Sequence record: OR062947.1
Reading direction: 5' to 3' (one strand)
DNA from: Escherichia phage 348Ecol098PP
DNA: 64,000 nucleotides
Shown: positions 3,305 through 15,575 of the stretch, piece after piece
How positions within the stretch are numbered: the stretch's first letter is position 1
Layout of the letters: every line of letters starts with the position of its first letter
The notes under the pieces: model-generated
Database searches by the model: none
Told to the model about the DNA's origin: nothing
What the model saw: the letters and a program-made list of their open reading frames with translations, nothing else
Translations under genes and position numbers: made by a program

Positions 3305-3393
3305 AATATCTCCTTAGTTACCTATTATTTATTACGCTTTATAAAATTAATGTTAGAATTAACTTCTCTTATACTGAATTGAAAGGAAAAATA

Positions 3394-3915
3394 ATGGCAC
3401 ACTTTAACGAATGTTCACAACTTATTTCTGGTGTTGATAAAGCAGAAGAAGCTTATTTTAATGCTCTGATTCACGAAGATAAAGACCCACTGCAGGTAAT
3501 GCTTGATATGCAGAAATCTTTACAGGTTCGTCTGGCAAATGACAAGCCTGAACATAACAAACATCCTGATGAATTGGCCACTGCTGGCGATGTTGTTGAT
3601 TGGCTGCGTAATCAGAAAGATTATATTGATGATGAATTCCGTGAACTGCTGACTTCACTTGGTGGTATGAGCAATGGTGAAAAAGCCGCCAGCAGTGTAT
3701 GGAAGCCGTGGAAGGCACAACATGCTGAATATCGAAATCGTCGTATCGATGAACTGTCTCCTGAAGACCAGCTTGAAATTAAATTCGAGATGATTGATAT
3801 CCTCCACTTTGTTCTGAATATGTTCCAAGGTCTGGGTCTTTCCGCTGAAGAAATCTTTAAACTTTACTACTTGAAAAACCAACACAACTTTGAACGTCAG
3901 GATAATGGTTACTGA
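3394..3915 (+). CDS. 56: dCTP pyrophosphatase (dCTPase/dUTPase) gp56
   Basis: ATG at 3394 (track start 3379 is TTG); MAHFNEC...DPLQVMLDMQ...FRELLTSLG...SPEDQLEIKFE..FHFVLNMF matches remembered T4 gp56. Confidence 0.85.
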   Translation: MAHFNECSQLISGVDKAEEAYFNALIHEDKDPLQVMLDMQKSLQVRLANDKPEHNKHPDELATAGDVVDWLRNQKDYIDDEFRELLTSLGGMSNGEKAASSVWKPWKAQHAEYRNRRIDELSPEDQLEIKFEMIDILHFVLNMFQGLGLSAEEIFKLYYLKNQHNFERQDNGY

Positions 3916-7164: not shown

Positions 7165-7911
7165 ATGTTGTCAAATAATAAAATTAACAAAATCAATCGT
7201 CGTCTTGACCACACCAGAGCTTCTGCGAAGAGACGCTCTAAGGATTTTAACTTAGACTTTAATTACCTTAAAAACATTCTTGATCAAAAGGTCTGCGCTT
7301 ACTCAGGTGAATCTTTTAATAACTCTGTTGAAGGTGAGAAATTATCCTTAGAACGTTTTAATAATGATATCGGCTACATTAAAGGTAATGTTATCCCAGT
7401 TAAGAAAAAATATAACACGGCTCGTTCTGATTTAACATTAGAAGAACTTATTGAAAAACGTGATGCCATTGCAAGACGTATCGCTAATCCTTCTGCCCGT
7501 AAAGTAGAGAAACTTAATCTCGACGAGAAGAAATGGGCCCAAATTAAAAAGGTTTATGGTACTATTTTAAAAATCCGAGCAAAACGTGAAAATCGTGTTA
7601 AGCATATGGCGAACATGATGAAAAATCAACCTTTATCTAACGAATCTAAACTTAGAATTGTTGCTTTGAAAGCACGCATTAATGGCTCACATCAAGCAGA
7701 AGGCCATGAACTTACTAAACTCAACGTTCTTCTTAAAGGCTCTGACTGGAAAACTAAAACTAAATTAACTGACGCTGAATCGCTTTTCGATACATATGAT
7801 AAAGTTATCCAAGGTCTGCAACGTTTTGAAAAGATTGGTTTCATTGGTAAATTAAAATTGAAACGTGGCTTACCACTTAGCGCATCATTATTCCAACTGA
7901 TTAAAGGTTAA
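7165..7911 (+). CDS. srd: Srd-like protein (similarity to rpoD)
   Basis: 248 aa basic protein directly upstream of dda.1/dda; size and position match T4 srd. Confidence 0.6.
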   Translation: MLSNNKINKINRRLDHTRASAKRRSKDFNLDFNYLKNILDQKVCAYSGESFNNSVEGEKLSLERFNNDIGYIKGNVIPVKKKYNTARSDLTLEELIEKRDAIARRIANPSARKVEKLNLDEKKWAQIKKVYGTILKIRAKRENRVKHMANMMKNQPLSNESKLRIVALKARINGSHQAEGHELTKLNVLLKGSDWKTKTKLTDAESLFDTYDKVIQGLQRFEKIGFIGKLKLKRGLPLSASLFQLIKG

Positions 7912-7913
7912 TT

Positions 7914-8225
7914 ATGGTTTATGTATATGCAATAGTTTATCGAGATATGGAAGGATTTACTGTCCCGGTTCCACTTGATGAGCATCGTCCTGCAGTATTT
8001 TTTAGAAAGGATATTGCAGATAAAGTTTTCGATACTTTGAAAACACAGTATAAAACAGATTTAAAAATGGGAGTTCTAAGAATGGTCGAAACTCCGCGTA
8101 AGTTCTGGTTTAATAAGCTTGAAATGAAACACGTTAAACTAGATGCGGAGACGCAAAGATTGTATCAACGAATCCTGGACACAGGCCGTATTGTTAGTAT
8201 TCCAATTGCAGGGACTTTACGATGA
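7914..8225 (+). CDS. hypothetical protein (dda.1 position)
   Basis: 103 aa; stop overlaps the dda start. Confidence 0.5.
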   Translation: MVYVYAIVYRDMEGFTVPVPLDEHRPAVFFRKDIADKVFDTLKTQYKTDLKMGVLRMVETPRKFWFNKLEMKHVKLDAETQRLYQRILDTGRIVSIPIAGTLR

Positions 8226-9535
8226 CATTTGATGATTTGACTGAAGGCCAGAAAAACGCCTTCAACGTTGTTATGAACGCTATTAAAGAAAAGAAACATC
8301 ACGTAACTATTAATGGGCCTGCTGGTACAGGTAAAACAACCCTTACTAGATTCATCGTTGAAGCCCTTATTTCTTCTGGAGAATCAGGTATTATTTTAGC
8401 AGCCCCTACACACGCCGCTAAAAAGGTTCTAAGCAAACTTGCGGGTCAAGAAGCATCGACTATTCATAGCATTCTTAAAATCAACCCAACTACATACGAA
8501 GAAAACGTATTGTTTGAACAGAAAAAGGTTCCCGACTTAGCCTTGTGCCGTGTACTGTTATTTGACGAAGCGTCAATGTGCGACCGTTCTCTGTTTAAAA
8601 TAATGTTAGCTAGTATCCCTAAATGGTGTACAGTAATTGGAATCGGCGACCGATGCCAGATTCGTCCGGTAGACCCAGGCGAATCAACTGCGTATCTAAG
8701 TCCTTTCTTCACTCACAAAGACTTCGTGCAATGCAATCTTACAGAAGTTAAACGTAGCAATGCACCAATTATTGATGTTGCGACTGATATTCGTAATGGC
8801 AAATGGATTTACGATAAAGTAGTTGATGGACACGGTGTTCACGGATATACAGACCTTAAATCGTATATGATGAACTATTTTAACGTCGTTAAAACTCCTG
8901 AAGACCTTTTCGAAAATCGAATGATGGCATTCACAAATAAGTCGGTGGACAAGTTAAATTCAATTATTCGCCGAAAACTTCTTGAAACAGAAAAACCATT
9001 TATTAAAGACGAAGTCATTGTTCTACAAGAGCCGTTTACTAAGACATATAAGCTAGATGGTAAAAATATGACCGAAATGCTTTTCAATAACGGCCAATTC
9101 GTTCGTATTCGAGATGCTGTAGAAACGTCTACATTCGTTAAAGCACGTGGTGTTTCAGGCGAATATATGATACGATACTGGAATCTTACAGTAGAAACAT
9201 ATGGGGATGATGAAGAATACATCCGCGAAGATATAAAGGTTATTTCTTCTGAAGAAGAGCTTTATAAATTCAATTTGTTTTTGGCTAAGACCGCAGAAAC
9301 ATACAAATTTTGGAATAAAGGTGGTAAAGCTCCATGGAGCGAATTCTGGGATGCTAAACGTATGTTCACTAAGGTGAAGGCGCTACCAGTATCAACCTTC
9401 CATAAGGCCCAGGGTATGTCTGTTGACACTGCCTTTGTTTATACACCGTGTATCCATTATGCCGATTCAGAATTAGCTAAACAGTTATTGTATGTCGGCA
9501 CAACTCGCGGTCGGTTTGACGTCCATTTTATTTGA
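8222..9535 (+). CDS. dda: Dda DNA helicase (SF1B)
   Basis: 437 aa; MTFDDLTEGQKNAFN...INGPAGTGKTT (Walker A) matches remembered T4 Dda. Confidence 0.92.
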   Translation: MTFDDLTEGQKNAFNVVMNAIKEKKHHVTINGPAGTGKTTLTRFIVEALISSGESGIILAAPTHAAKKVLSKLAGQEASTIHSILKINPTTYEENVLFEQKKVPDLALCRVLLFDEASMCDRSLFKIMLASIPKWCTVIGIGDRCQIRPVDPGESTAYLSPFFTHKDFVQCNLTEVKRSNAPIIDVATDIRNGKWIYDKVVDGHGVHGYTDLKSYMMNYFNVVKTPEDLFENRMMAFTNKSVDKLNSIIRRKLLETEKPFIKDEVIVLQEPFTKTYKLDGKNMTEMLFNNGQFVRIRDAVETSTFVKARGVSGEYMIRYWNLTVETYGDDEEYIREDIKVISSEEELYKFNLFLAKTAETYKFWNKGGKAPWSEFWDAKRMFTKVKALPVSTFHKAQGMSVDTAFVYTPCIHYADSELAKQLLYVGTTRGRFDVHFI

Positions 9536-9544
9536 GAGAAAATT

Positions 9545-10222
9545 ATGAGCACTGATGTTATTATAGATTTTGAAACATTCGGCAATACATCAAAAGCGGC
9601 TGTTATTGACCTTGCGGTTATTGCATATAATTCCGACCCTGAAGTTGTTGAATCATTTGAAGAACTTGTTCAACGAGGTAAGCGAATTAAATTTAATTTA
9701 GCTTCTCAGAAAGGGAAGCGAGTTTTCGCTAAATCCACTATGAAATGGTGGAAAGAACAATCGGCTGACGCACGTAAAAACTTGACTCCGTCTGAAGACG
9801 ATGTCACTACGCTTGAAGGCATTAAAATCTTTTTAGACTATTGCCGAGCTAATAAAGTTGACCAATGGAAATCACAGATGTGGTGCCGTGGTATGAGCTT
9901 TGACTTCCCGATCTTAGTCGATTTGATTCGTGACCTTTATCGTGATGAAGGTGTTCTTGAACCAGATATTGATACTGATAAATTAGAACCGGTTAAATTC
10001 TGGGCTCAACGAGATATTCGTACTGCAATCGAAGCTTACTCGTTGACACGAGGATTAAGTATGTGTCCATTACCGATGGGTACGCTAAAAGGATTCGTTG
10101 CCCATGATAGTATTCATGATTGTGCTAAAGATATTTTGATGTTAAAATATGCTCAGCGTTATGCGCTTGGCCTTGAAGATGTCCCTGAGAATCCTGACCC
10201 GTTAAGTGTAAAACAGCGATAA
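9545..10222 (+). CDS. dexA: exonuclease A (DexA)
   Basis: 225 aa; IIDFETFG DEDD-type exonuclease start; adjacent to dda as in T4. Confidence 0.8.
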   Translation: MSTDVIIDFETFGNTSKAAVIDLAVIAYNSDPEVVESFEELVQRGKRIKFNLASQKGKRVFAKSTMKWWKEQSADARKNLTPSEDDVTTLEGIKIFLDYCRANKVDQWKSQMWCRGMSFDFPILVDLIRDLYRDEGVLEPDIDTDKLEPVKFWAQRDIRTAIEAYSLTRGLSMCPLPMGTLKGFVAHDSIHDCAKDILMLKYAQRYALGLEDVPENPDPLSVKQR

Positions 10223-10227
10223 AACCA

Positions 10228-10258
10228 GTTTACAACCAAGGATGGTTGGAGTATAATC
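10228..10258 (+). promoter_or_regulatory. early promoter cassette (family A)
   Basis: gtttacaaccaaggatggttggagtataat; near-identical copies at 10786 and 59673. Confidence 0.55.
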
Positions 10259-10288
10259 TTTCTATCTTAACCAAACAGGAAAAACATT

Positions 10289-10783
10289 ATGAATATCAAT
10301 ACTATGGCTACTTACATCCTGAAAGACGAAAAACAAATCAACTGGTACGGTGCTTCAGTGCGAGCTTATGAAAAGTTTTGTGAAATTTTAGGTGCCACTC
10401 AAGGTAATAGTTTCACTATTGTTAACTTCATCAAACAAGTTGAAGGCCCTTGGTTATTCTTAGAAATTAAAAATTCATACGGTACAATTTCTACTACTGC
10501 CATTCCAAGCACCGACTTTGAACTGTTGATTGAAGAAGCACCTGTTAAAGATGGTCTCCACTTTGATATGGATATCGTTTGTATGTACGGTACTCTGATT
10601 AAGCCTATTGAGCCTACTGATTTGTTGTGTAAATATGTTTCAATTCGACGCCCATTCGATGGTCCGGTAAATGGATGGGTAACTGACCAGTGGATTGAAG
10701 ATGGGGTTGAACTTCTGAACGTTGTTCATGCCGGTGATTTTAGTGTGGTTCCACGTAGTGCAGTAGTTAATATTCTAAATTAA
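10289..10783 (+). CDS. hypothetical protein, paralog 1 (shares C-terminal domain with next two ORFs; motB region)
   Basis: 164 aa; C-terminus GWVTDQWIEDGVELLNVVHAGDFSVVP. Confidence 0.55.
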   Translation: MNINTMATYILKDEKQINWYGASVRAYEKFCEILGATQGNSFTIVNFIKQVEGPWLFLEIKNSYGTISTTAIPSTDFELLIEEAPVKDGLHFDMDIVCMYGTLIKPIEPTDLLCKYVSIRRPFDGPVNGWVTDQWIEDGVELLNVVHAGDFSVVPRSAVVNILN

Positions 10784-10784
10784 T

Positions 10785-10816
10785 GTTGTACATCCAAGGA
10801 TGGATGGAGTATAATG
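10785..10816 (+). promoter_or_regulatory. early promoter cassette (family A)
   Basis: gttgtacatccaaggatggatggagtataat. Confidence 0.5.
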
Positions 10817-10845
10817 AATTCAACTTAAACAAAGAGAGAAAAAAT

Positions 10846-11376
10846 ATGATTACTATTGGTGAAATCCTTCGTGTATCTCCTGCTTCTCGTTCTAAAGCTG
10901 CAGGTCGTCTGGTTGAAGTAGCAGGGCTTCGTACTAACGGCATGGGACGTGTTAAAGAAGTTAAAGTTCGAATCATCCCCAGTTTTGGCGGACAAGATGC
11001 CCAGTATGCTTACGTAAGTCCTAAATTCCTGGAAAAACATATACGAGTCCAATTTGCTTCAAGCGAAGAAGTTGCACCTGCACACTTTGCTTCTGTTGAA
11101 GAAGTTGAATCACGTGATGGATACGTATGTGAATCCACTGAGCCTAATGTACAGTTCAAATGGGCCCTTTGCAAAGGCGTTGAATTTATAACCGATAAAG
11201 AATTTGATTACATCGACGAATACGGTTATCCAAGCAAAACTGATACTATGTGCGGCTTCATCAGCGACCAATGGGTTGAAGATGGTAAAAAGCTATACAA
11301 TATTGTATTCTTAGGTGACTTCCGAGTTGTTGAAGAATCTGAAATCACTCGCTATGTGTCTCCACGTAAAGCTTAA
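10846..11376 (+). CDS. hypothetical protein, paralog 2
   Basis: ATG at 10846 downstream of the promoter (the track start 10783 lies inside the promoter); C-terminus GFISDQWVEDGKKLYNIVFLGDFRVV. Confidence 0.55.
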   Translation: MITIGEILRVSPASRSKAAGRLVEVAGLRTNGMGRVKEVKVRIIPSFGGQDAQYAYVSPKFLEKHIRVQFASSEEVAPAHFASVEEVESRDGYVCESTEPNVQFKWALCKGVEFITDKEFDYIDEYGYPSKTDTMCGFISDQWVEDGKKLYNIVFLGDFRVVEESEITRYVSPRKA

Positions 11377-11385
11377 GGAATTATT

Positions 11386-11805
11386 ATGAATATTGCAAAT
11401 CTCTCTATTGGTGATTATGTACACGTATCGGATGCTTCTCGCTCTAAAGTTGCTGGTAAGTTGGTCGAAGTTCTTTCTGTGAGTGATCCGGTTTTTGGAC
11501 GTAACGAAGTTAAAGTTAGTGACGCCGATGGTAACATTGGTTACGTTAAAAGCCAGTTCATCGAGCCAGAAGAACGCGCGTTCAAATGGAAACTGGGCAG
11601 ATCAGTTTTAGTTGTAAAAGACTACGAGTTCACCATTGCCGCTGCGACAGATGGAACACCGTGGACAACGAATCAAGTTGCTGGTTTTATTTCGGACCAA
11701 TGGGTAGAAGATGGTGTTAAGCTTTATAACATCGTTTTCGCTGGACAGTTCATGGTAGTTCCTGAGTTCCAAATCAAAAAATATTGTCCAGCATCTTTTG
11801 CATAA
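11386..11805 (+). CDS. hypothetical protein, paralog 3
   Basis: 139 aa; N-terminus resembles paralog 2 (SxASRSKxAGxLVEV); C-terminus GFISDQWVEDGVKLYNIVFAGQFMVVP. Confidence 0.55.
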   Translation: MNIANLSIGDYVHVSDASRSKVAGKLVEVLSVSDPVFGRNEVKVSDADGNIGYVKSQFIEPEERAFKWKLGRSVLVVKDYEFTIAAATDGTPWTTNQVAGFISDQWVEDGVKLYNIVFAGQFMVVPEFQIKKYCPASFA

Positions 11806-11809
11806 AGTT

Positions 11810-11860
11810 GTTTACTTCTCCTCTGGATTTGGTATTATATCCATATCAACCAGAGGAGAA
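11810..11860 (+). promoter_or_regulatory. early promoter with 10-bp inverted repeat spanning -10 to SD
   Basis: gtttac at 11810; tctcctctgg (11817-11826) is the reverse complement of ccagaggaga (11850-11859); tattat -10 between them. Confidence 0.5.
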
Positions 11861-11864
11861 TAAT

Positions 11865-12389
11865 ATGTTAGTTTACCGCGTAGAACGTAGTTTTTGTACT
11901 CAACGTGAATCATTACCAGGAATTGCTATCAAAGACGGTAAAGCCGTCAGAATTTGGGAAACCTCTTGGAATAAAGAACCTCGTTCGCCATACGGTTGGT
12001 CGGGCACCGACAACTCTGAAGAAACATGGGAGTTCCTTGATAAGCATGGAATACTCTCAGGTAACTTCTACCATCATGGCGACAACTATAATGTCCCTAA
12101 TCGTCCTACAGTAAATGAAGACAAACTCCTTGAACAAAATATCTTAAGATACTATAGAATTGATCACTCATTTGAATTGAGTGAAGATTGGGCCCAAGGG
12201 TTCTATTTTGGATTTGAAAGTGTTGACGCGGTTTATGCATGGTTTGATGACCAGGTGGATGTTGAACTCTTGAAAGCTAAAGGATACTACATCGCGGTCT
12301 ATGAAGCGCCTGATTTCATCCTCGGAAGTTGTCAATTAATGTTCAGACGTTCATTGGCAGAACAAGTTGATTTTATTTTGCTAAAATGA
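11865..12389 (+). CDS. hypothetical protein
   Basis: ATG at 11865 after cagaggag SD; 174 aa. Confidence 0.5.
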   Translation: MLVYRVERSFCTQRESLPGIAIKDGKAVRIWETSWNKEPRSPYGWSGTDNSEETWEFLDKHGILSGNFYHHGDNYNVPNRPTVNEDKLLEQNILRYYRIDHSFELSEDWAQGFYFGFESVDAVYAWFDDQVDVELLKAKGYYIAVYEAPDFILGSCQLMFRRSLAEQVDFILLK

Positions 12390-12423
12390 TGTACAACAAC
12401 TATGGTCTATGATACTATAGACC
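12388..12423 (+). promoter_or_regulatory. early promoter cassette (family C, ...tatagacctatcaa)
   Basis: atgtac box, tactat -10, inverted repeat ggtcta/tagacc flanking the -10. Confidence 0.45.
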
Positions 12424-12446
12424 TATCAAAACAAGAGGAGAATATT

Positions 12447-12674
12447 ATGAAACGTCAAATCATTAAAAACGTAACTACTGATTCAAACATCGATGAGTTT
12501 GAAGATGTTCTGTTTAATCCTGATTTAGTTGTTGTACAGAAAAACTGGACTGAATTTTTATGCTACACTGAAGTGGTTTACGTTTACGAAAAACTAGGCG
12601 ATGAAATGCCTATCTATGGTATCTTCCGTGAAATCACTGAAAATGGTACAACTTATTGGAAGGAAACTTACTAA
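12447..12674 (+). CDS. hypothetical protein
   Basis: ATG at 12447 after aagaggag SD; 75 aa. Confidence 0.45.
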
Positions 12675-13087
12675 TGGCTAATAAATTCCGCGTTAACTCA
12701 TGGTACCAATTTATAGATAAACGTGCCCAAGAAGAGTTTATTAAAGACCACACTGATAATGGGATTTATGCACGACGTCTTGGCATGGAACCATTTAAAG
12801 TATTAGATGTTGACCATCTCGGACGTCCTACTAAAATTTTAACATCTACTGGCACGGTTGGATACGCAACAGGCGGTGATATCCTTGATGAAAACTTTAT
12901 CTGGCTCTCCACGAATGAAGCAGAGTTCTTTGACGAAGTTGAAAATCCATATCAAGCGTCCGAAGAGCAAGATTCTAGTGAACTTGACGAATTGTCTGAA
13001 TTTCCGGTGATGACGATTACTATCGAAAATAACGACCAGGCATGGTCTTTGTATCAAATGTTGAAAGCCCACTTTAAGGAACAATAA
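12674..13087 (+). CDS. hypothetical acidic protein
   Basis: ATG at 12674 (TAATG overlap; track start 12656 is TTG); 137 aa. Confidence 0.5.
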
Positions 13088-13266
13088 TGCCGTTATACGA
13101 CTATAAATGTCAATCTGAAGATTGTGGTCATGAATATGAAAAAATTAAAAGGATTTCTGAACGAGAAAACGATGTTTGCCCTGAATGTCATCGTCTGTCT
13201 ACTCGTCGGGTTTCTGCTCCTAAACATGTGAACGGTGGTTTTTACGACTTACTTAAGAAGGGTTAA
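13087..13266 (+). CDS. small zinc-ribbon protein (CxxC-x17-CxxC)
   Basis: 59 aa ORF below the track cutoff; YKCQSEDCGH...CPECH motif; TAATG coupling to the upstream ORF. Confidence 0.45.
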   Translation: MPLYDYKCQSEDCGHEYEKIKRISERENDVCPECHRLSTRRVSAPKHVNGGFYDLLKKG

Positions 13267-13268
13267 TT

Positions 13269-13694
13269 ATGGCTTTTAAAGGTTTTGAAGTTGGTAAGAA
13301 ATATCGTATTATCAAAGGACAGGAAGATAATTTCTTGAGAATTCTTAATACGACTGGTAAGCGTCTTAATACTAATCTGCATACTACTTTATTGTCCAAA
13401 GATTTTATTGTGGAAGAGATGATTGGTTACGGCGTTTCGGTTATTGCTGTAGAAGCCGTAGGCGATTATGGCCGAACTATTCATAGTATGCAAGGTGATA
13501 TTCTGCTTTATGGTGCAGAATTTAAATTCTTTGAAGAAGTTCCGGAACCAGATACAGCTGTCGATTTCAAAAAAGGCTCTATAGAATTTGTTGATGGTTC
13601 GGTGATCGTATCAGGCGATGTGGTCATTACAGTTAAAAGTGAACAAGGGCGTTTAGCTGCAATTGATGCACTTCAGAAAATTAAATTTAAATAA
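13269..13694 (+). CDS. hypothetical protein
   Basis: 141 aa ORF immediately upstream of gene 39, followed by a terminator. Confidence 0.5.
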   Translation: MAFKGFEVGKKYRIIKGQEDNFLRILNTTGKRLNTNLHTTLLSKDFIVEEMIGYGVSVIAVEAVGDYGRTIHSMQGDILLYGAEFKFFEEVPEPDTAVDFKKGSIEFVDGSVIVSGDVVITVKSEQGRLAAIDALQKIKFK

Positions 13695-13711
13695 GGGCTT
13701 CGGCCCTTTTT
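13695..13711 (+). terminator. rho-independent terminator
   Basis: gggcttcggccc hairpin followed by ttttt. Confidence 0.75.
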
Positions 13712-13735
13712 GCTTTAGATTTCGGATGATAGAAT
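13708..13735 (+). promoter_or_regulatory. MotA-dependent middle promoter (MotA box TTTGCTTTA plus -10 TAGAAT)
   Basis: tttgcttta at 13708-13716, about 12-13 nt spacer, tagaat at 13730-13735, upstream of gene 39. Confidence 0.5.
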
Positions 13736-13757
13736 ACCTTCATAACGAGGAGACAAC

Positions 13758-15575
13758 ATGATTAAAAATGAAATTAAGGTATTGTCAGATGTAGAACATA
13801 TTAAGAAACGTAGTGGTATGTATATTGGTTCTTCTGCTAAAGAAGCACATGAGCGTTTTTTGTTTGGTAAATATCAACAAGTTGAATATGTTCCTGGTCT
13901 GGTTAAATTAATCGATGAGATTATTGACAACTCGGTTGATGAAGCTATTCGTACATCATTTAAGTTTGCAAATAAAATTGATGTGCAAATTAAAAATAAT
14001 CAAGTTTCGGTGGAAGATAACGGACGTGGTATTCCTCAAGGTTTAGTTACCGACCAAACAGGTGAACAAATTCCTGGGCCTGTAGCAGCCTGGACTATTC
14101 CAAAGGCCGGTGGTAACTTTGGTGATGACTCTGAACGCAAGACTGGTGGTATGAACGGCGTCGGGAGTAGTTTAACTAATATCTTCTCTACGTTGTTTAC
14201 AGGCATCACGTCAGATGGCGAAAATGAAATCACTGTTAACTGTTCAAACGGAATGGAAAACAAATCATGGTCTTCTAAGAAATCTAAAGGTAAAGGCACT
14301 AAAGTAATCTTCACTCCTGATTTCACTTCATTTGAAGAGCATAATTTATCTCAAATTTATTTAGATATTACTTTAGACCGACTTCAAACATTGGCAGTCG
14401 TTTATCCTGATATCAAGTTCACATTTAATGGTAAAAAGGTTGATGGTAATTTTAAACGATTTGCTAAACAATTTGGTGAAGATAACATCATTCAAGAAAA
14501 TGATAAAGTCTCTATAGCATTCACAACATCACCAGATGGCTTCCGTCATTTAACTTATGTGAATAACATCCATACTAAAAATGGTGGCCATCATGTTGAA
14601 TGTGTAATGGATGATATCTGCGAACATCTTTTGCCCGGTATTAAAAAGAAATATAAGGGTATTGAAGTCACTAAAGCTCGTGTTAAAGAATGCCTCACAA
14701 TGTTGATGTTTATTAGAGACATGAGCAACATGCGTTTTGATTCTCAGACTAAAGAACGTTTAACGTCAACGTATGGTGATATTCGTAATCATATCCAATT
14801 AGATGCTAAGAAAATTGCTCAGGCACTTCTTAAAAACGAAGCCTTGATTATGCCTATTGTTGAAGCCGCATTAGCTCGTAAATTGGCGGCAGAAAAGGCT
14901 GCAGAAACTAAAGCAGCTAAAAAGGCAACTAAAGCTAAGGTTCATAAACATATTAAAGCTAACCAATGTGGTAAAGATGCAGATACGACATTGTTCTTAA
15001 CAGAAGGTGATTCTGCAATTGGTTATCTCATTGATGTTCGTGACCGTGAACTACACGGCGGATTCCCATTACGTGGTAAGGTGATGAATAGCTGGGGTAT
15101 GTCATATGCTGATATGATGAAGAACAAAGAGCTCTTTGATATCTGTGCTATCACGGGTCTTATTCTTGGTGAAAAGGCAGAGAATACGAACTATCGTAAT
15201 ATTGCAATTATGACCGATGCCGATCATGACGGTCTTGGAAGTATCTATCCGGCTTTGCTTGCTTTCTTTAGTAATTGGCCTGAATTGTTTGAACAAGGAC
15301 GTATTCGCTTTGTTAAAACACCTGTAATTATTGCACAAATTGGCAAAGCTCAAAAATGGTTTTATACTGTAGCTGAGTATGAAGAAGTTAAAGATACACT
15401 GCCTAAGCATAGTATTCGATACATCAAGGGATTAGGCTCCCTTGAAAAGTCAGAATATCGTGAAATGATTCAGAACCCTGTGTACGACGTAGTTAAACTT
15501 CCTGAAAATTGGAAAGAACTCTTTGAAATGTTGATGGGTGATGATTCAGAACTTCGTAAAGAATGGATGTCCTAA
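13758..15575 (+). CDS. 39: DNA topoisomerase II large subunit (GyrB-like), fused gp39/gp60
   Basis: 605 aa; GHKL ATPase motifs (IDEIIDNSVDEA, EDNGRGIP) and Toprim region; the length implies the T4 gene 60 part is fused with no bypass element. Confidence 0.9.
   Translation: MIKNEIKVLSDVEHIKKRSGMYIGSSAKEAHERFLFGKYQQVEYVPGLVKLIDEIIDNSVDEAIRTSFKFANKIDVQIKNNQVSVEDNGRGIPQGLVTDQTGEQIPGPVAAWTIPKAGGNFGDDSERKTGGMNGVGSSLTNIFSTLFTGITSDGENEITVNCSNGMENKSWSSKKSKGKGTKVIFTPDFTSFEEHNLSQIYLDITLDRLQTLAVVYPDIKFTFNGKKVDGNFKRFAKQFGEDNIIQENDKVSIAFTTSPDGFRHLTYVNNIHTKNGGHHVECVMDDICEHLLPGIKKKYKGIEVTKARVKECLTMLMFIRDMSNMRFDSQTKERLTSTYGDIRNHIQLDAKKIAQALLKNEALIMPIVEAALARKLAAEKAAETKAAKKATKAKVHKHIKANQCGKDADTTLFLTEGDSAIGYLIDVRDRELHGGFPLRGKVMNSWGMSYADMMKNKELFDICAITGLILGEKAENTNYRNIAIMTDADHDGLGSIYPALLAFFSNWPELFEQGRIRFVKTPVIIAQIGKAQKWFYTVAEYEEVKDTLPKHSIRYIKGLGSLEKSEYREMIQNPVYDVVKLPENWKELFEMLMGDDSELRKEWMS

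What the first reader, a model, noticed from the sequence alone, without database searches (positions are those of the whole stretch)
10289..11805. Tandem triplet of paralogous ORFs sharing a C-terminal D-Q-W-(V/I)-E-D-G ... G-D-F domain
Three consecutive early ORFs end with nearly the same ~30-aa segment (GWVTDQWIEDGVELLNVVHAGDFSVVP, GFISDQWVEDGKKLYNIVFLGDFRVV, GFISDQWVEDGVKLYNIVFAGQFMVVP). The second and third also share an N-terminal motif (SxASRSKxAGxLVEV). The first two are each preceded by a near-identical promoter cassette. A locally amplified family with variable N-termini on a conserved module is typical of host-interaction or anti-defence factors. This is the region where T4 carries motB.
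Basis: seen in the sequence. Interest (0 to 1): 0.6.

Follow-up and report, generated by a model that had tools for sequence, protein, structure and literature searches.

The report
MotB.1 plus two MotB genes

Summary
Three consecutive + strand genes (10289-10783, 10846-11376, 11386-11805) end in the same module, with pairwise BLASTP E-values of 6e-10, 4e-11 and 2e-27. There are exactly three copies in the 64-kb window.

The window is a Mosigvirus (RB69-like, about 97% identical to phages 308Ecol101PP and ST0). ORF1 is full-length MotB.1 (phrog_2333, 6e-81). ORF2 and ORF3 are two copies of MotB (Pfam PF17613, 6e-36 and 8e-25).

The shared MotB/MotB.1 C-terminal domain is already published (Patterson-West et al., Viruses 2021, PMC7827196). 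So is the fact that RB69 carries two motB genes plus motB.1.

What I add is incremental:
- The paralog modules are saturated at synonymous sites, so the copies are ancient, not a recent amplification.
- The module is neutral to acidic. Positive charge sits in the KOW head of ORF2 and is lost in ORF3.
- The 119-aa T4 reference MotB.1 and RB69's "29-aa peptide" are frameshift products of the intact gene seen here.

There is no evidence for an anti-defence role. Interest is low.

The parts
10229..10257 (+). Early-type sigma-70 promoter in front of ORF1 (TTTACA-17-TATAAT)
   Evidence: 11 of 12 consensus positions. Part of a 57-nt repeat shared with the ORF2 promoter.
10289..10783 (+). ORF1 = full-length MotB.1 (164 aa). 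N-terminal LSm-like head is residues 1-85 (10289-10543). The low-confidence linker carrying the DMDIVCMYGTLIKP motif is residues 86-107 (10544-10609). The shared C-terminal barrel is residues 108-164 (10610-10780).
   Evidence: phrog_2333 at 6.4e-81 and Pfam PF17613 at 2e-08 on residues 88-159. 47% identical, E=6e-46, to the intact 143-aa T4-type MotB.1. AF2 mean pLDDT 78.9, with residues 86-106 below 50.
10787..10815 (+). Early-type promoter in front of ORF2/ORF3 (TGTACA-17-TATAAT)
   Evidence: 26 of 29 positions identical to the ORF1 promoter.
10846..11376 (+). ORF2 = MotB ortholog (176 aa). Basic KOW-like head is residues 1-62 (10846-11031). The acidic, length-variable linker is residues 63-102 (11032-11151) and contains an 11-codon tandem duplication. 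The C-terminal barrel is residues 103-176 (11152-11373).
   Evidence: Pfam PF17613 at 5.8e-36 over the full length; phrog_1671 at 3.9e-63. 42% identical to T4 MotB, E=7e-42. Head net charge +6, linker -6, CTD -4. Linker repeat at 11050-11074 / 11083-11107.
11386..11805 (+). ORF3 = second, short MotB paralog (139 aa). KOW-like head is residues 1-60 (11386-11565). There is almost no linker. The C-terminal barrel is residues 65-139 (11578-11802). It lies 9 nt after the ORF2 stop with its own AAGGA ribosome-binding site, so it is probably co-transcribed with ORF2.
   Evidence: Pfam PF17613 at 7.8e-25; phrog_1671 at 7.7e-51. 39% identical to T4 MotB, E=4e-31. AF2 pLDDT 85.7. Homologs of 139 aa at 81-100% identity. 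About 207 phage records have a copy at >=80% identity.
11811..11838 (+). Context: third early-type promoter (TTTACT-16-TATTAT) in front of motB.2
   Evidence: 9 of 12 positions.
11865..12389 (+). Context, not a family member: MotB.2 homolog (174 aa). It lacks the shared module.
   Evidence: phrog_1106 at 1.9e-45, no Pfam hit. No hit to the module HMM. RB69 motB.2 lies at the same position.

Best explanation
The three genes are the motB.1-motB-motB' block of an RB69-like (Mosigvirus) T4-type phage. They are transcribed early from two nearly identical sigma-70 promoters.

Each protein has two small beta-barrel domains:
- a variable N-terminal head, LSm-like in ORF1/MotB.1 and KOW-like in ORF2 and ORF3;
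- a common C-terminal SH3/Tudor-like barrel carrying the invariant G-[WFY]-[IV]-[TS]-D-Q-W-[VI]-E-D-G...L.N.V..G..xVV core.

By homology with T4 MotB, ORF2 is a non-sequence-specific DNA-coating, nucleoid-associated-type protein. In T4 it remodels H-NS/StpA-DNA complexes early in infection and modestly raises phage yield. This is shown for T4 and inferred here.

My inference, not shown, is a division of labour. The basic KOW head would supply most of the nucleic-acid contact. The conserved neutral-to-acidic C-terminal barrel would be the family's common module for self-association or for contacting a shared partner such as H-NS/StpA. That would explain why it is kept almost unchanged under different heads.

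ORF3 is an old, conserved duplicate that has lost both the linker and the positive charge of the head. It is therefore probably sub- or neo-functionalised rather than a redundant DNA binder. ORF1 (MotB.1) has no known function.
For: Identity:
- Pfam PF17613 and PHROG hits.
- 97% DNA identity to Mosigvirus genomes in which the three genes are annotated 'transcription regulator MotB'.
- Synteny dda-dexA-...-cef-goF with T4 and RB69.
- ORF2 and ORF3 against T4 MotB give E=7e-42 and 4e-31. ORF1 against intact T4-type MotB.1 gives E=6e-46.

Published:
- Shared CTD, RB69 copy numbers and KOW head (PMC7827196, sections 3.1-3.2).
- MotB DNA binding, toxicity, H-NS/StpA co-purification and 2-fold burst effect (PMC6070864).
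- LSm-like head of MotB.1 (PMC12152347).

Structure:
- AF2 models have pLDDT 85.7 and 78.9. The CTD has the same five-strand pattern in both, with a short helix between strands 4 and 5.

Old paralogs under purifying selection:
- pS 0.82-0.87 against pN 0.22-0.37.
- ORF3-type copies at 81-100% identity across many genomes.

Modularity: the same CTD occurs behind KOW, LSm-like and doubled LSm-like heads.

Charge:
- T4 MotB has pI 9.2 with a head of +5.
- ORF2 head is +6. ORF3 head is -2.
- The CTDs range from 0 to -4 here, and +1 in T4.
Against: No experiment separates the two domains, so the division of labour (head binds DNA, CTD binds a partner or itself) is inference from charge and conservation only.

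PWWP, some Tudor and KIN17-type SH3-like barrels do bind DNA, so the fold does not exclude DNA binding by the CTD. The published HHpred analysis called the CTD an OB-fold, cold-shock-type DNA-binding domain (PMC7827196).

Whole ORF2 is acidic (pI 5.4), unlike T4 MotB (pI 9.2). Even the transfer of 'DNA-coating' from T4 to this ortholog is therefore not guaranteed.

Confidence: 0.8

Rival explanations
1. The shared C-terminal module is itself the DNA-binding domain (OB-fold or cold-shock-like, as published). All three proteins would then be DNA-binding nucleoid proteins whose heads merely modulate that activity.
Confidence: 0.3
2. The block is an anti-defence locus. Local gene amplification would have produced variants, each neutralising a different host immune system.
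For: Early expression from strong promoters. Location in the dispensable, plastic early region. Modular family restricted to T4-type phages, with only 30 clusters at 50% identity among 1.84 billion proteins. Amplification of anti-defence loci is documented in T-even phages, though at a different locus (PMC13096335).
Against: Synonymous sites between the copies are saturated, so there is no recent amplification. The gene set is fixed, not variable, across about 200 Mosigvirus-type genomes. The characterised member acts on DNA and H-NS, not on a defence system (PMC6070864, PMC7827196). No anti-defence claim for MotB or MotB.1 appears in the papers found.
Confidence: 0.08
3. ORF3, and possibly ORF1, are redundant decaying copies with no function of their own.
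For: ORF3 has lost the linker and the basic charge of the head. T4 motB.1 is dispensable in the laboratory (PMC12152347). The reference records of T4 and RB69 show broken motB.1 reading frames.
Against: ORF3 homologs keep an intact 139-aa frame at 81-100% identity in many genomes. pN is well below pS. The T4 frameshift is confined to the reference record: 13 other T4, T4T, RB55 and RB59 records lack the extra base. The intact 143-aa protein is seen on 256 contigs.
Confidence: 0.05
4. The shared motif is a chance or low-complexity resemblance.
For: None beyond the shortness of the ORF1/ORF2 and ORF1/ORF3 BLAST alignments (30-36 aa).
Against: E-values of 6e-10 and 4e-11 for single comparisons. 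Pfam and PHROG cross-hits. The same predicted five-strand domain in both models. The sequence is not compositionally simple.
Confidence: 0.01

Closest known systems
T4 MotB (gene motB, NP_049626; Pfam PF17613)
   Same: ORF2 and ORF3 align over the full length (42% and 39% identity). They have the same KOW-like head with the SRSKAAGxLVEV motif and the same C-terminal barrel. They occupy the same genomic neighbourhood between dexA and cef and have an early promoter.
   Different: This phage has two copies. ORF2 has a longer, acidic linker with an 11-codon duplication, and the whole protein is acidic (pI 5.4 against 9.2). ORF3 lacks the linker and the basic head. Gene order also differs: T4 has motB.2-motB.1-motB, whereas here it is motB.1-motB-motB'-motB.2.
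T4 MotB.1 (gene motB.1; phrog_2333)
   Same: ORF1 is its ortholog: 47% identity to the intact 143-aa form, with the same LSm-like head and the same C-terminal barrel.
   Different: ORF1 has an extra ~22-residue linker segment (DMDIVCMYGTLIKP motif) that T4 lacks. The T4 reference record encodes only 119 aa because of one extra G, so ORF1 represents the complete architecture.
RB69 motB.1 + RB69p012 + motB + RB69p010 (NC_004928)
   Same: Same genus and same gene order. There are two MotB copies, of which RB69p010 is the ORF3 ortholog. This exact arrangement is described in PMC7827196, section 3.2.
   Different: In the RB69 record motB.1 is split by two single-base insertions into a 132-aa ORF and a 29-aa ORF. 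The latter is the 'Category 3 peptide' of the 2021 paper. Here it is one 164-aa gene. RB69 MotB is 151 aa; ORF2 is 176 aa.
Tandem SH3-like barrels: Spt5/NusG KOW domains and the 53BP1 tandem Tudor
   Different: The resemblance is at fold level only (7-23% identity) and no sequence relationship is detectable. An aromatic cage or other functional site was not examined. This is an analogy, not membership.
Other phage proteins that counteract H-NS (for example T7 gp5.5 and T4 Arn; recalled from memory, not checked here)
   Same: Early phage proteins that interfere with H-NS-mediated silencing or nucleoid organisation.
   Different: They have unrelated sequences and folds. As I recall, they bind H-NS directly or mimic DNA, whereas MotB binds DNA itself.

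Membership tests
MotB family (Pfam PF17613, 'Modifier of transcription') | Score above Pfam's gathering threshold (25 bits) | tested here: met
   ORF2 scores 124.2 bits, ORF3 88.1 bits and ORF1 34.7 bits, the last on the C-terminal half only.
MotB family (Pfam PF17613, 'Modifier of transcription') | N-terminal KOW-like head with the V-S-x-x-S-R-S-K-x-A-G motif | tested here: met
MotB family (Pfam PF17613, 'Modifier of transcription') | C-terminal domain with the D-Q-W-[VI]-E-D-G ... L-x-N-x-V ... G core | tested here: met
   All three ORFs carry it.
MotB family (Pfam PF17613, 'Modifier of transcription') | Position in the early dda-dexA ... cef-goF block of a T4-type phage | tested here: met
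MotB family (Pfam PF17613, 'Modifier of transcription') | Non-specific DNA binding, toxicity to E. coli, co-purification with H-NS/StpA | not testable with these tools
   Shown only for T4 MotB (PMC6070864, PMC7827196). The charge profile of ORF2 and ORF3 differs from that of T4 MotB.
MotB.1 family (phrog_2333; 'Category 2' of PMC7827196) | Full-length match to the MotB.1 profile, with an LSm-like head followed by a MotB-type CTD | tested here: met
   ORF1 matches phrog_2333 at 6.4e-81 over residues 1-164. It is 47% identical to the 143-aa T4-type protein. The AF2 head has strands plus one helix, followed by a linker and a five-strand CTD. The LSm-like label itself comes from PMC12152347.
OB-fold, cold-shock DNA-binding domain (published prediction for the CTD) | Five-stranded Greek-key barrel with the helix between strands 3 and 4, and structural neighbours among CSD/S1/eIF5A-C domains | tested here: not met
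Tudor / chromo / PWWP 'Royal' superfamily | Sequence-detectable homology and an aromatic cage for methyl-lysine or methyl-arginine | not tested
Phage anti-defence proteins | Demonstrated or homology-inferred inhibition of a bacterial immune system | not tested
   No such annotation was found in Pfam, PHROG or the papers read. No dedicated anti-defence library was available.

The most novel reading that the evidence does not exclude
The C-terminal barrel could be a dedicated targeting module, through self-assembly on the nucleoid or docking to H-NS/StpA. T4-type phages would combine it with interchangeable nucleic-acid-binding heads: KOW for DNA, and LSm-like possibly for RNA. The three genes would then form a small toolkit that delivers different activities to the same host structure. 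On this reading the charge-neutralised ORF3 acts as a modulator or capping subunit of ORF2 filaments rather than as a DNA binder.
Probability: 0.2. Interest if true: 0.45.

Novelty: already known. Interest (0 to 1): 0.15.

Why it matters
MotB is one of the few phage-encoded nucleoid-associated proteins with some experimental characterisation, and how it works at domain level is still open. This window adds no new kind of system.

It does offer a clean natural comparison set in one operon-like block:
- an intact MotB.1;
- a MotB with a basic head and an acidic linker;
- a linker-less, non-basic MotB.

That set is convenient for asking which domain binds DNA and which binds a partner.

It also shows that two reference annotations used in the literature are frameshift products of one complete gene: the T4 119-aa MotB.1, and the RB69 132-aa MotB.1 plus a "29-aa peptide". 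This matters for anyone expressing or modelling MotB.1.

Tried and rejected
1. Programmed frameshifting in T4 motB.1. The rest of the module is intact in the next frame of the T4 reference. I rejected this because the extra G is present only in AF158101/NC_000866. It is absent from 13 other T4, T4T, RB55 and RB59 records, and the intact 143-aa protein is on 256 contigs.

2. Recent local amplification or gene conversion between the modules. Rejected: nucleotide identity is 53-65% and pS is 0.82-0.87, which is saturated.

3. Further copies elsewhere in the window. None found.

4. A structured RNA in the block. There is no Rfam match at gathering thresholds in 9500-13800.

5. A solved structure of a relative. 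None by sequence; the best PDB E-value is 0.62.

6. A wider distribution of the module. A profile search of 1.84 billion representatives gave only 30 clusters (23 at E<=1e-10). Three weak hits to 800-aa repeat proteins were not pursued.

7. A fold search against viral models returned only family members from other T4-type phages, and nothing with a known function beyond MotB.

8. The NAR 2021 paper on MotB-driven DNA compaction (PMC8450097) is not held. I rely on how later papers cite it.

9. I considered arguing for an exposed D-W-E binding patch on strand 2. I dropped it because I could not inspect model coordinates.

Full report
WHAT IS THERE

The window is a T4-type phage of the genus Mosigvirus (RB69-like). 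The 3-kb stretch around the finding is 95-97% identical to phages 308Ecol101PP, ST0, HX01 and many others.

On the + strand the order is:
- dda (8222-9535)
- dexA (9545-10222)
- ORF1 (10289-10783, 164 aa)
- ORF2 (10846-11376, 176 aa)
- ORF3 (11386-11805, 139 aa)
- a MotB.2 homolog (11865-12389)
- cef, goF, a zinc-ribbon ORF and a second GoF-family ORF

The minus strand holds only short mechanical ORFs, and no Rfam family matches.

CHECK OF THE OBSERVATION

The quoted C-terminal strings are present.
- BLASTP gives ORF1/ORF2 E=6e-10 (16/36 identical).
- ORF1/ORF3 gives E=4e-11 (18/30 identical).
- ORF2/ORF3 gives E=2e-27 over the whole length.

An HMM of the module finds exactly three copies in the six-frame translation of the 64-kb window, and nothing else better than E about 1.

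The two promoters are real consensus matches: TTTACA-17-TATAAT at 10229-10257 and TGTACA-17-TATAAT at 10787-10815. They share 26 of 29 positions and lie within a 57-nt repeat of 77% identity. A third early-type promoter precedes motB.2.

ORF3 follows ORF2 after 9 nt and has its own AAGGA site, so it is probably co-transcribed with ORF2. This is read from the sequence.

ORF2's true start is ATG 10846. The longer mechanical ORF from 10783 would run through the gene's own promoter. The shorter start also matches residue 1 of T4 MotB and the annotation of relatives.

IDENTITY

ORF2 and ORF3 are full-length members of Pfam PF17613 'motB' (5.8e-36 and 7.8e-25) and of phrog_1671. ORF1 is phrog_2333 (6.4e-81) and hits PF17613 only with its C-terminal half (2e-08, 34.7 bits against a cut-off of 25).

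Comparison with T4:
- ORF2 is 42% identical to T4 MotB (E=7e-42).
- ORF3 is 39% identical to T4 MotB (E=4e-31).
- ORF1 is 47% identical to the intact 143-aa T4-type MotB.1 (E=6e-46).

T4 has dexA-motB.2-motB.1-motB-cef. RB69 has dexA-motB.1-(29-aa ORF)-motB-MotB-like-motB.2-cef, which is the arrangement of this window. In close relatives the three genes are already annotated 'transcription regulator MotB' three times.

THIS IS PUBLISHED

Patterson-West et al. (Viruses 2021, PMC7827196, sections 3.1-3.2 and Discussion) state the following:
- MotB and MotB.1 share a conserved C-terminal domain but have different N-terminal domains.
- One gene probably arose from duplication of the other.
- 40 phages besides T4 carry both genes.
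- RB69 has two copies of motB, one motB.1 and a 29-aa peptide matching the CTD core.

Kim et al. (2025, PMC12152347) assign an LSm-like fold to the MotB.1 head. They also report that a T4 motB.1 deletion has no laboratory phenotype.

T4 MotB binds DNA without sequence specificity, is toxic to E. coli and co-purifies with H-NS and StpA. It alters H-NS footprints, de-represses part of the H-NS regulon and doubles burst size (PMC6070864, PMC7827196). It is cited as compacting the nucleoid (PMC13096335, citing Son et al., NAR 2021, which I could not retrieve).

WHAT THE TOOLS ADD

(a) Age of the copies. Across the 32-codon core the paralogs are 53-65% identical in DNA. The proportion of synonymous differences is 0.82-0.87 (saturated) and of non-synonymous differences 0.22-0.37. 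These are old paralogs kept by selection on the protein, not a recent amplification or gene conversion. The short ORF3-type copy is found as an intact 139-aa protein at 81-100% identity. It occurs at >=80% identity in about 207 of the 743 phage records that carry a MotB-type CTD. The MotB.1-type CTD is also in 743 records.

(c) Modularity. The same CTD sits behind several heads:
- KOW heads (MotB);
- LSm-like heads (MotB.1);
- divergent single or doubled LSm-like heads (the 180-aa and 250-aa 'Category 4' proteins);
- in more distant T4-type phages, KOW heads joined to the MotB.1-type CTD.

The family is tiny. It comprises 30 clusters at 50% identity among 1.84 billion representatives, of which 23 have E<=1e-10. 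Fold neighbours among viral models are the same family in other T4-type phages.

(d) Charge.
- T4 MotB is basic (pI 9.2, head +5).
- ORF2 keeps a basic head (+6), but its linker (-6) and CTD (-4) make the whole protein acidic (pI 5.4).
- ORF3 has lost the basic head (-2; pI 5.1).
- ORF1 is acidic throughout (pI 4.6).
- The shared CTD is neutral to acidic in all of them.

MECHANISM

Shown in T4 and transferred by homology to ORF2: an early, abundant, non-specific DNA-binding protein that remodels H-NS/StpA-DNA complexes.

Inferred by me: the basic KOW head supplies most of the DNA contact. The invariant, non-basic C-terminal barrel is the family's common self-association or partner-binding module. 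That would explain why it is conserved more strictly than any head and is reused under different heads.

On this reading ORF3 has diverged in function, as it has no linker and no basic head but is strongly conserved. It may act together with ORF2, with which it is probably co-transcribed. ORF1 (MotB.1) remains without a known function.

The main rival is that the CTD is itself the DNA-binding domain. The fold does not exclude this, since PWWP and some Tudor barrels bind DNA. Domain-separated EMSAs would decide it.

The anti-defence idea has no support. The copies are old and fixed, and the one characterised member acts on DNA and H-NS.

SIDE FINDINGS

The T4 reference record (NC_000866/AF158101) carries one extra G (ATTGGAAG against ATTGAAG, near position 7305). 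This truncates MotB.1 to 119 aa (13.80 kDa). Thirteen other T4, T4T, RB55 and RB59 records lack the extra base and encode 143 aa. The rest of the module lies intact in the next frame of the reference. The mass of 13.8 kDa quoted for MotB.1 in PMC12152347 corresponds to the truncated form.

In the RB69 record, two single-base insertions split motB.1 into a 132-aa ORF and the 29-aa 'Category 3 peptide' of the 2021 paper. That peptide is simply residues 136-164 of the intact protein seen in this window.

VERDICT

The thing itself is already known. Interest is low.

Noticed in passing
L003 (NC_000866.4) about 7305; compare L005 (MT984581.1) 310-741: The T4 reference genome has one extra G inside motB.1 (ATTGGAAG against ATTGAAG). 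This truncates the protein to 119 aa (13.8 kDa) in the middle of the DQWIEDG motif. Thirteen other T4, T4T, RB55 and RB59 records lack it and encode 143 aa. The 13.8 kDa mass quoted in PMC12152347 matches the truncated form.
   Followed up: yes
L004 (NC_004928.1) locus 3377-3873, against window 10289-10783: RB69 motB.1 (132 aa) and the 29-aa ORF RB69p012 are one gene broken by two single-base insertions relative to the window. RB69p012 is the 'Category 3 peptide' of PMC7827196. Whether the insertions are sequencing errors or real was not resolved.
   Followed up: partly
window 11050-11074 and 11083-11107 (ORF2 linker): An 11-codon tandem duplication (QFASSEEV.. / HFASVEEV..) lies in the acidic linker of ORF2. 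The linker length varies among close relatives: MotB is 151 aa in RB69, 165 aa in PNJ-6 and 176 aa here.
   Followed up: partly
window 10565-10606 (ORF1 residues 93-106): A short motif, D-x-D-[IV]-x-x-M-Y-x-x-x-[IV]-K-P, is predicted to be disordered (pLDDT below 50). It recurs just upstream of the CTD, or at the N-terminus, in many family members (P0029, P0039, P0078, P0170, P0176-P0180). It resembles ETIDTSHVGV in the T4 MotB linker and is absent from ORF3 and from T4 MotB.1. It may be a docking peptide.
   Followed up: no
protein P0149 (163 aa): This is a chimeric MotB. It has a T4-type head and linker joined at the FKWKL junction to an ORF3-type CTD. This suggests recombination between the two MotB paralog lineages or between phages.
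   Followed up: no
window 12674-13087 and 13269-13694: A second paralog pair lies just downstream. GoF and another ORF both match phrog_622 (4.8e-39 and 7.3e-22), although direct BLASTP between them is insignificant (E=0.017). They are separated by a 59-aa FmdB-like zinc-ribbon ORF (13087-13266). GoF is reported to share the LSm-like head fold with MotB.1 (PMC12152347).
   Followed up: partly
window 10783-10845: The mechanical ORF2 extension (MLYIQGWMEYNEFNLNKERKN) overlaps the ORF2 promoter. Some database proteins (P0147, P0151) are called with this spurious N-terminal extension.
   Followed up: partly
proteins P0183, P0188, P0189 (829-862 aa): Three long proteins matched the CTD profile weakly in 4-7 short stretches each (E of 4e-10 to 7e-4). 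They are probably repeat proteins matching by composition. They were not examined.
   Followed up: no
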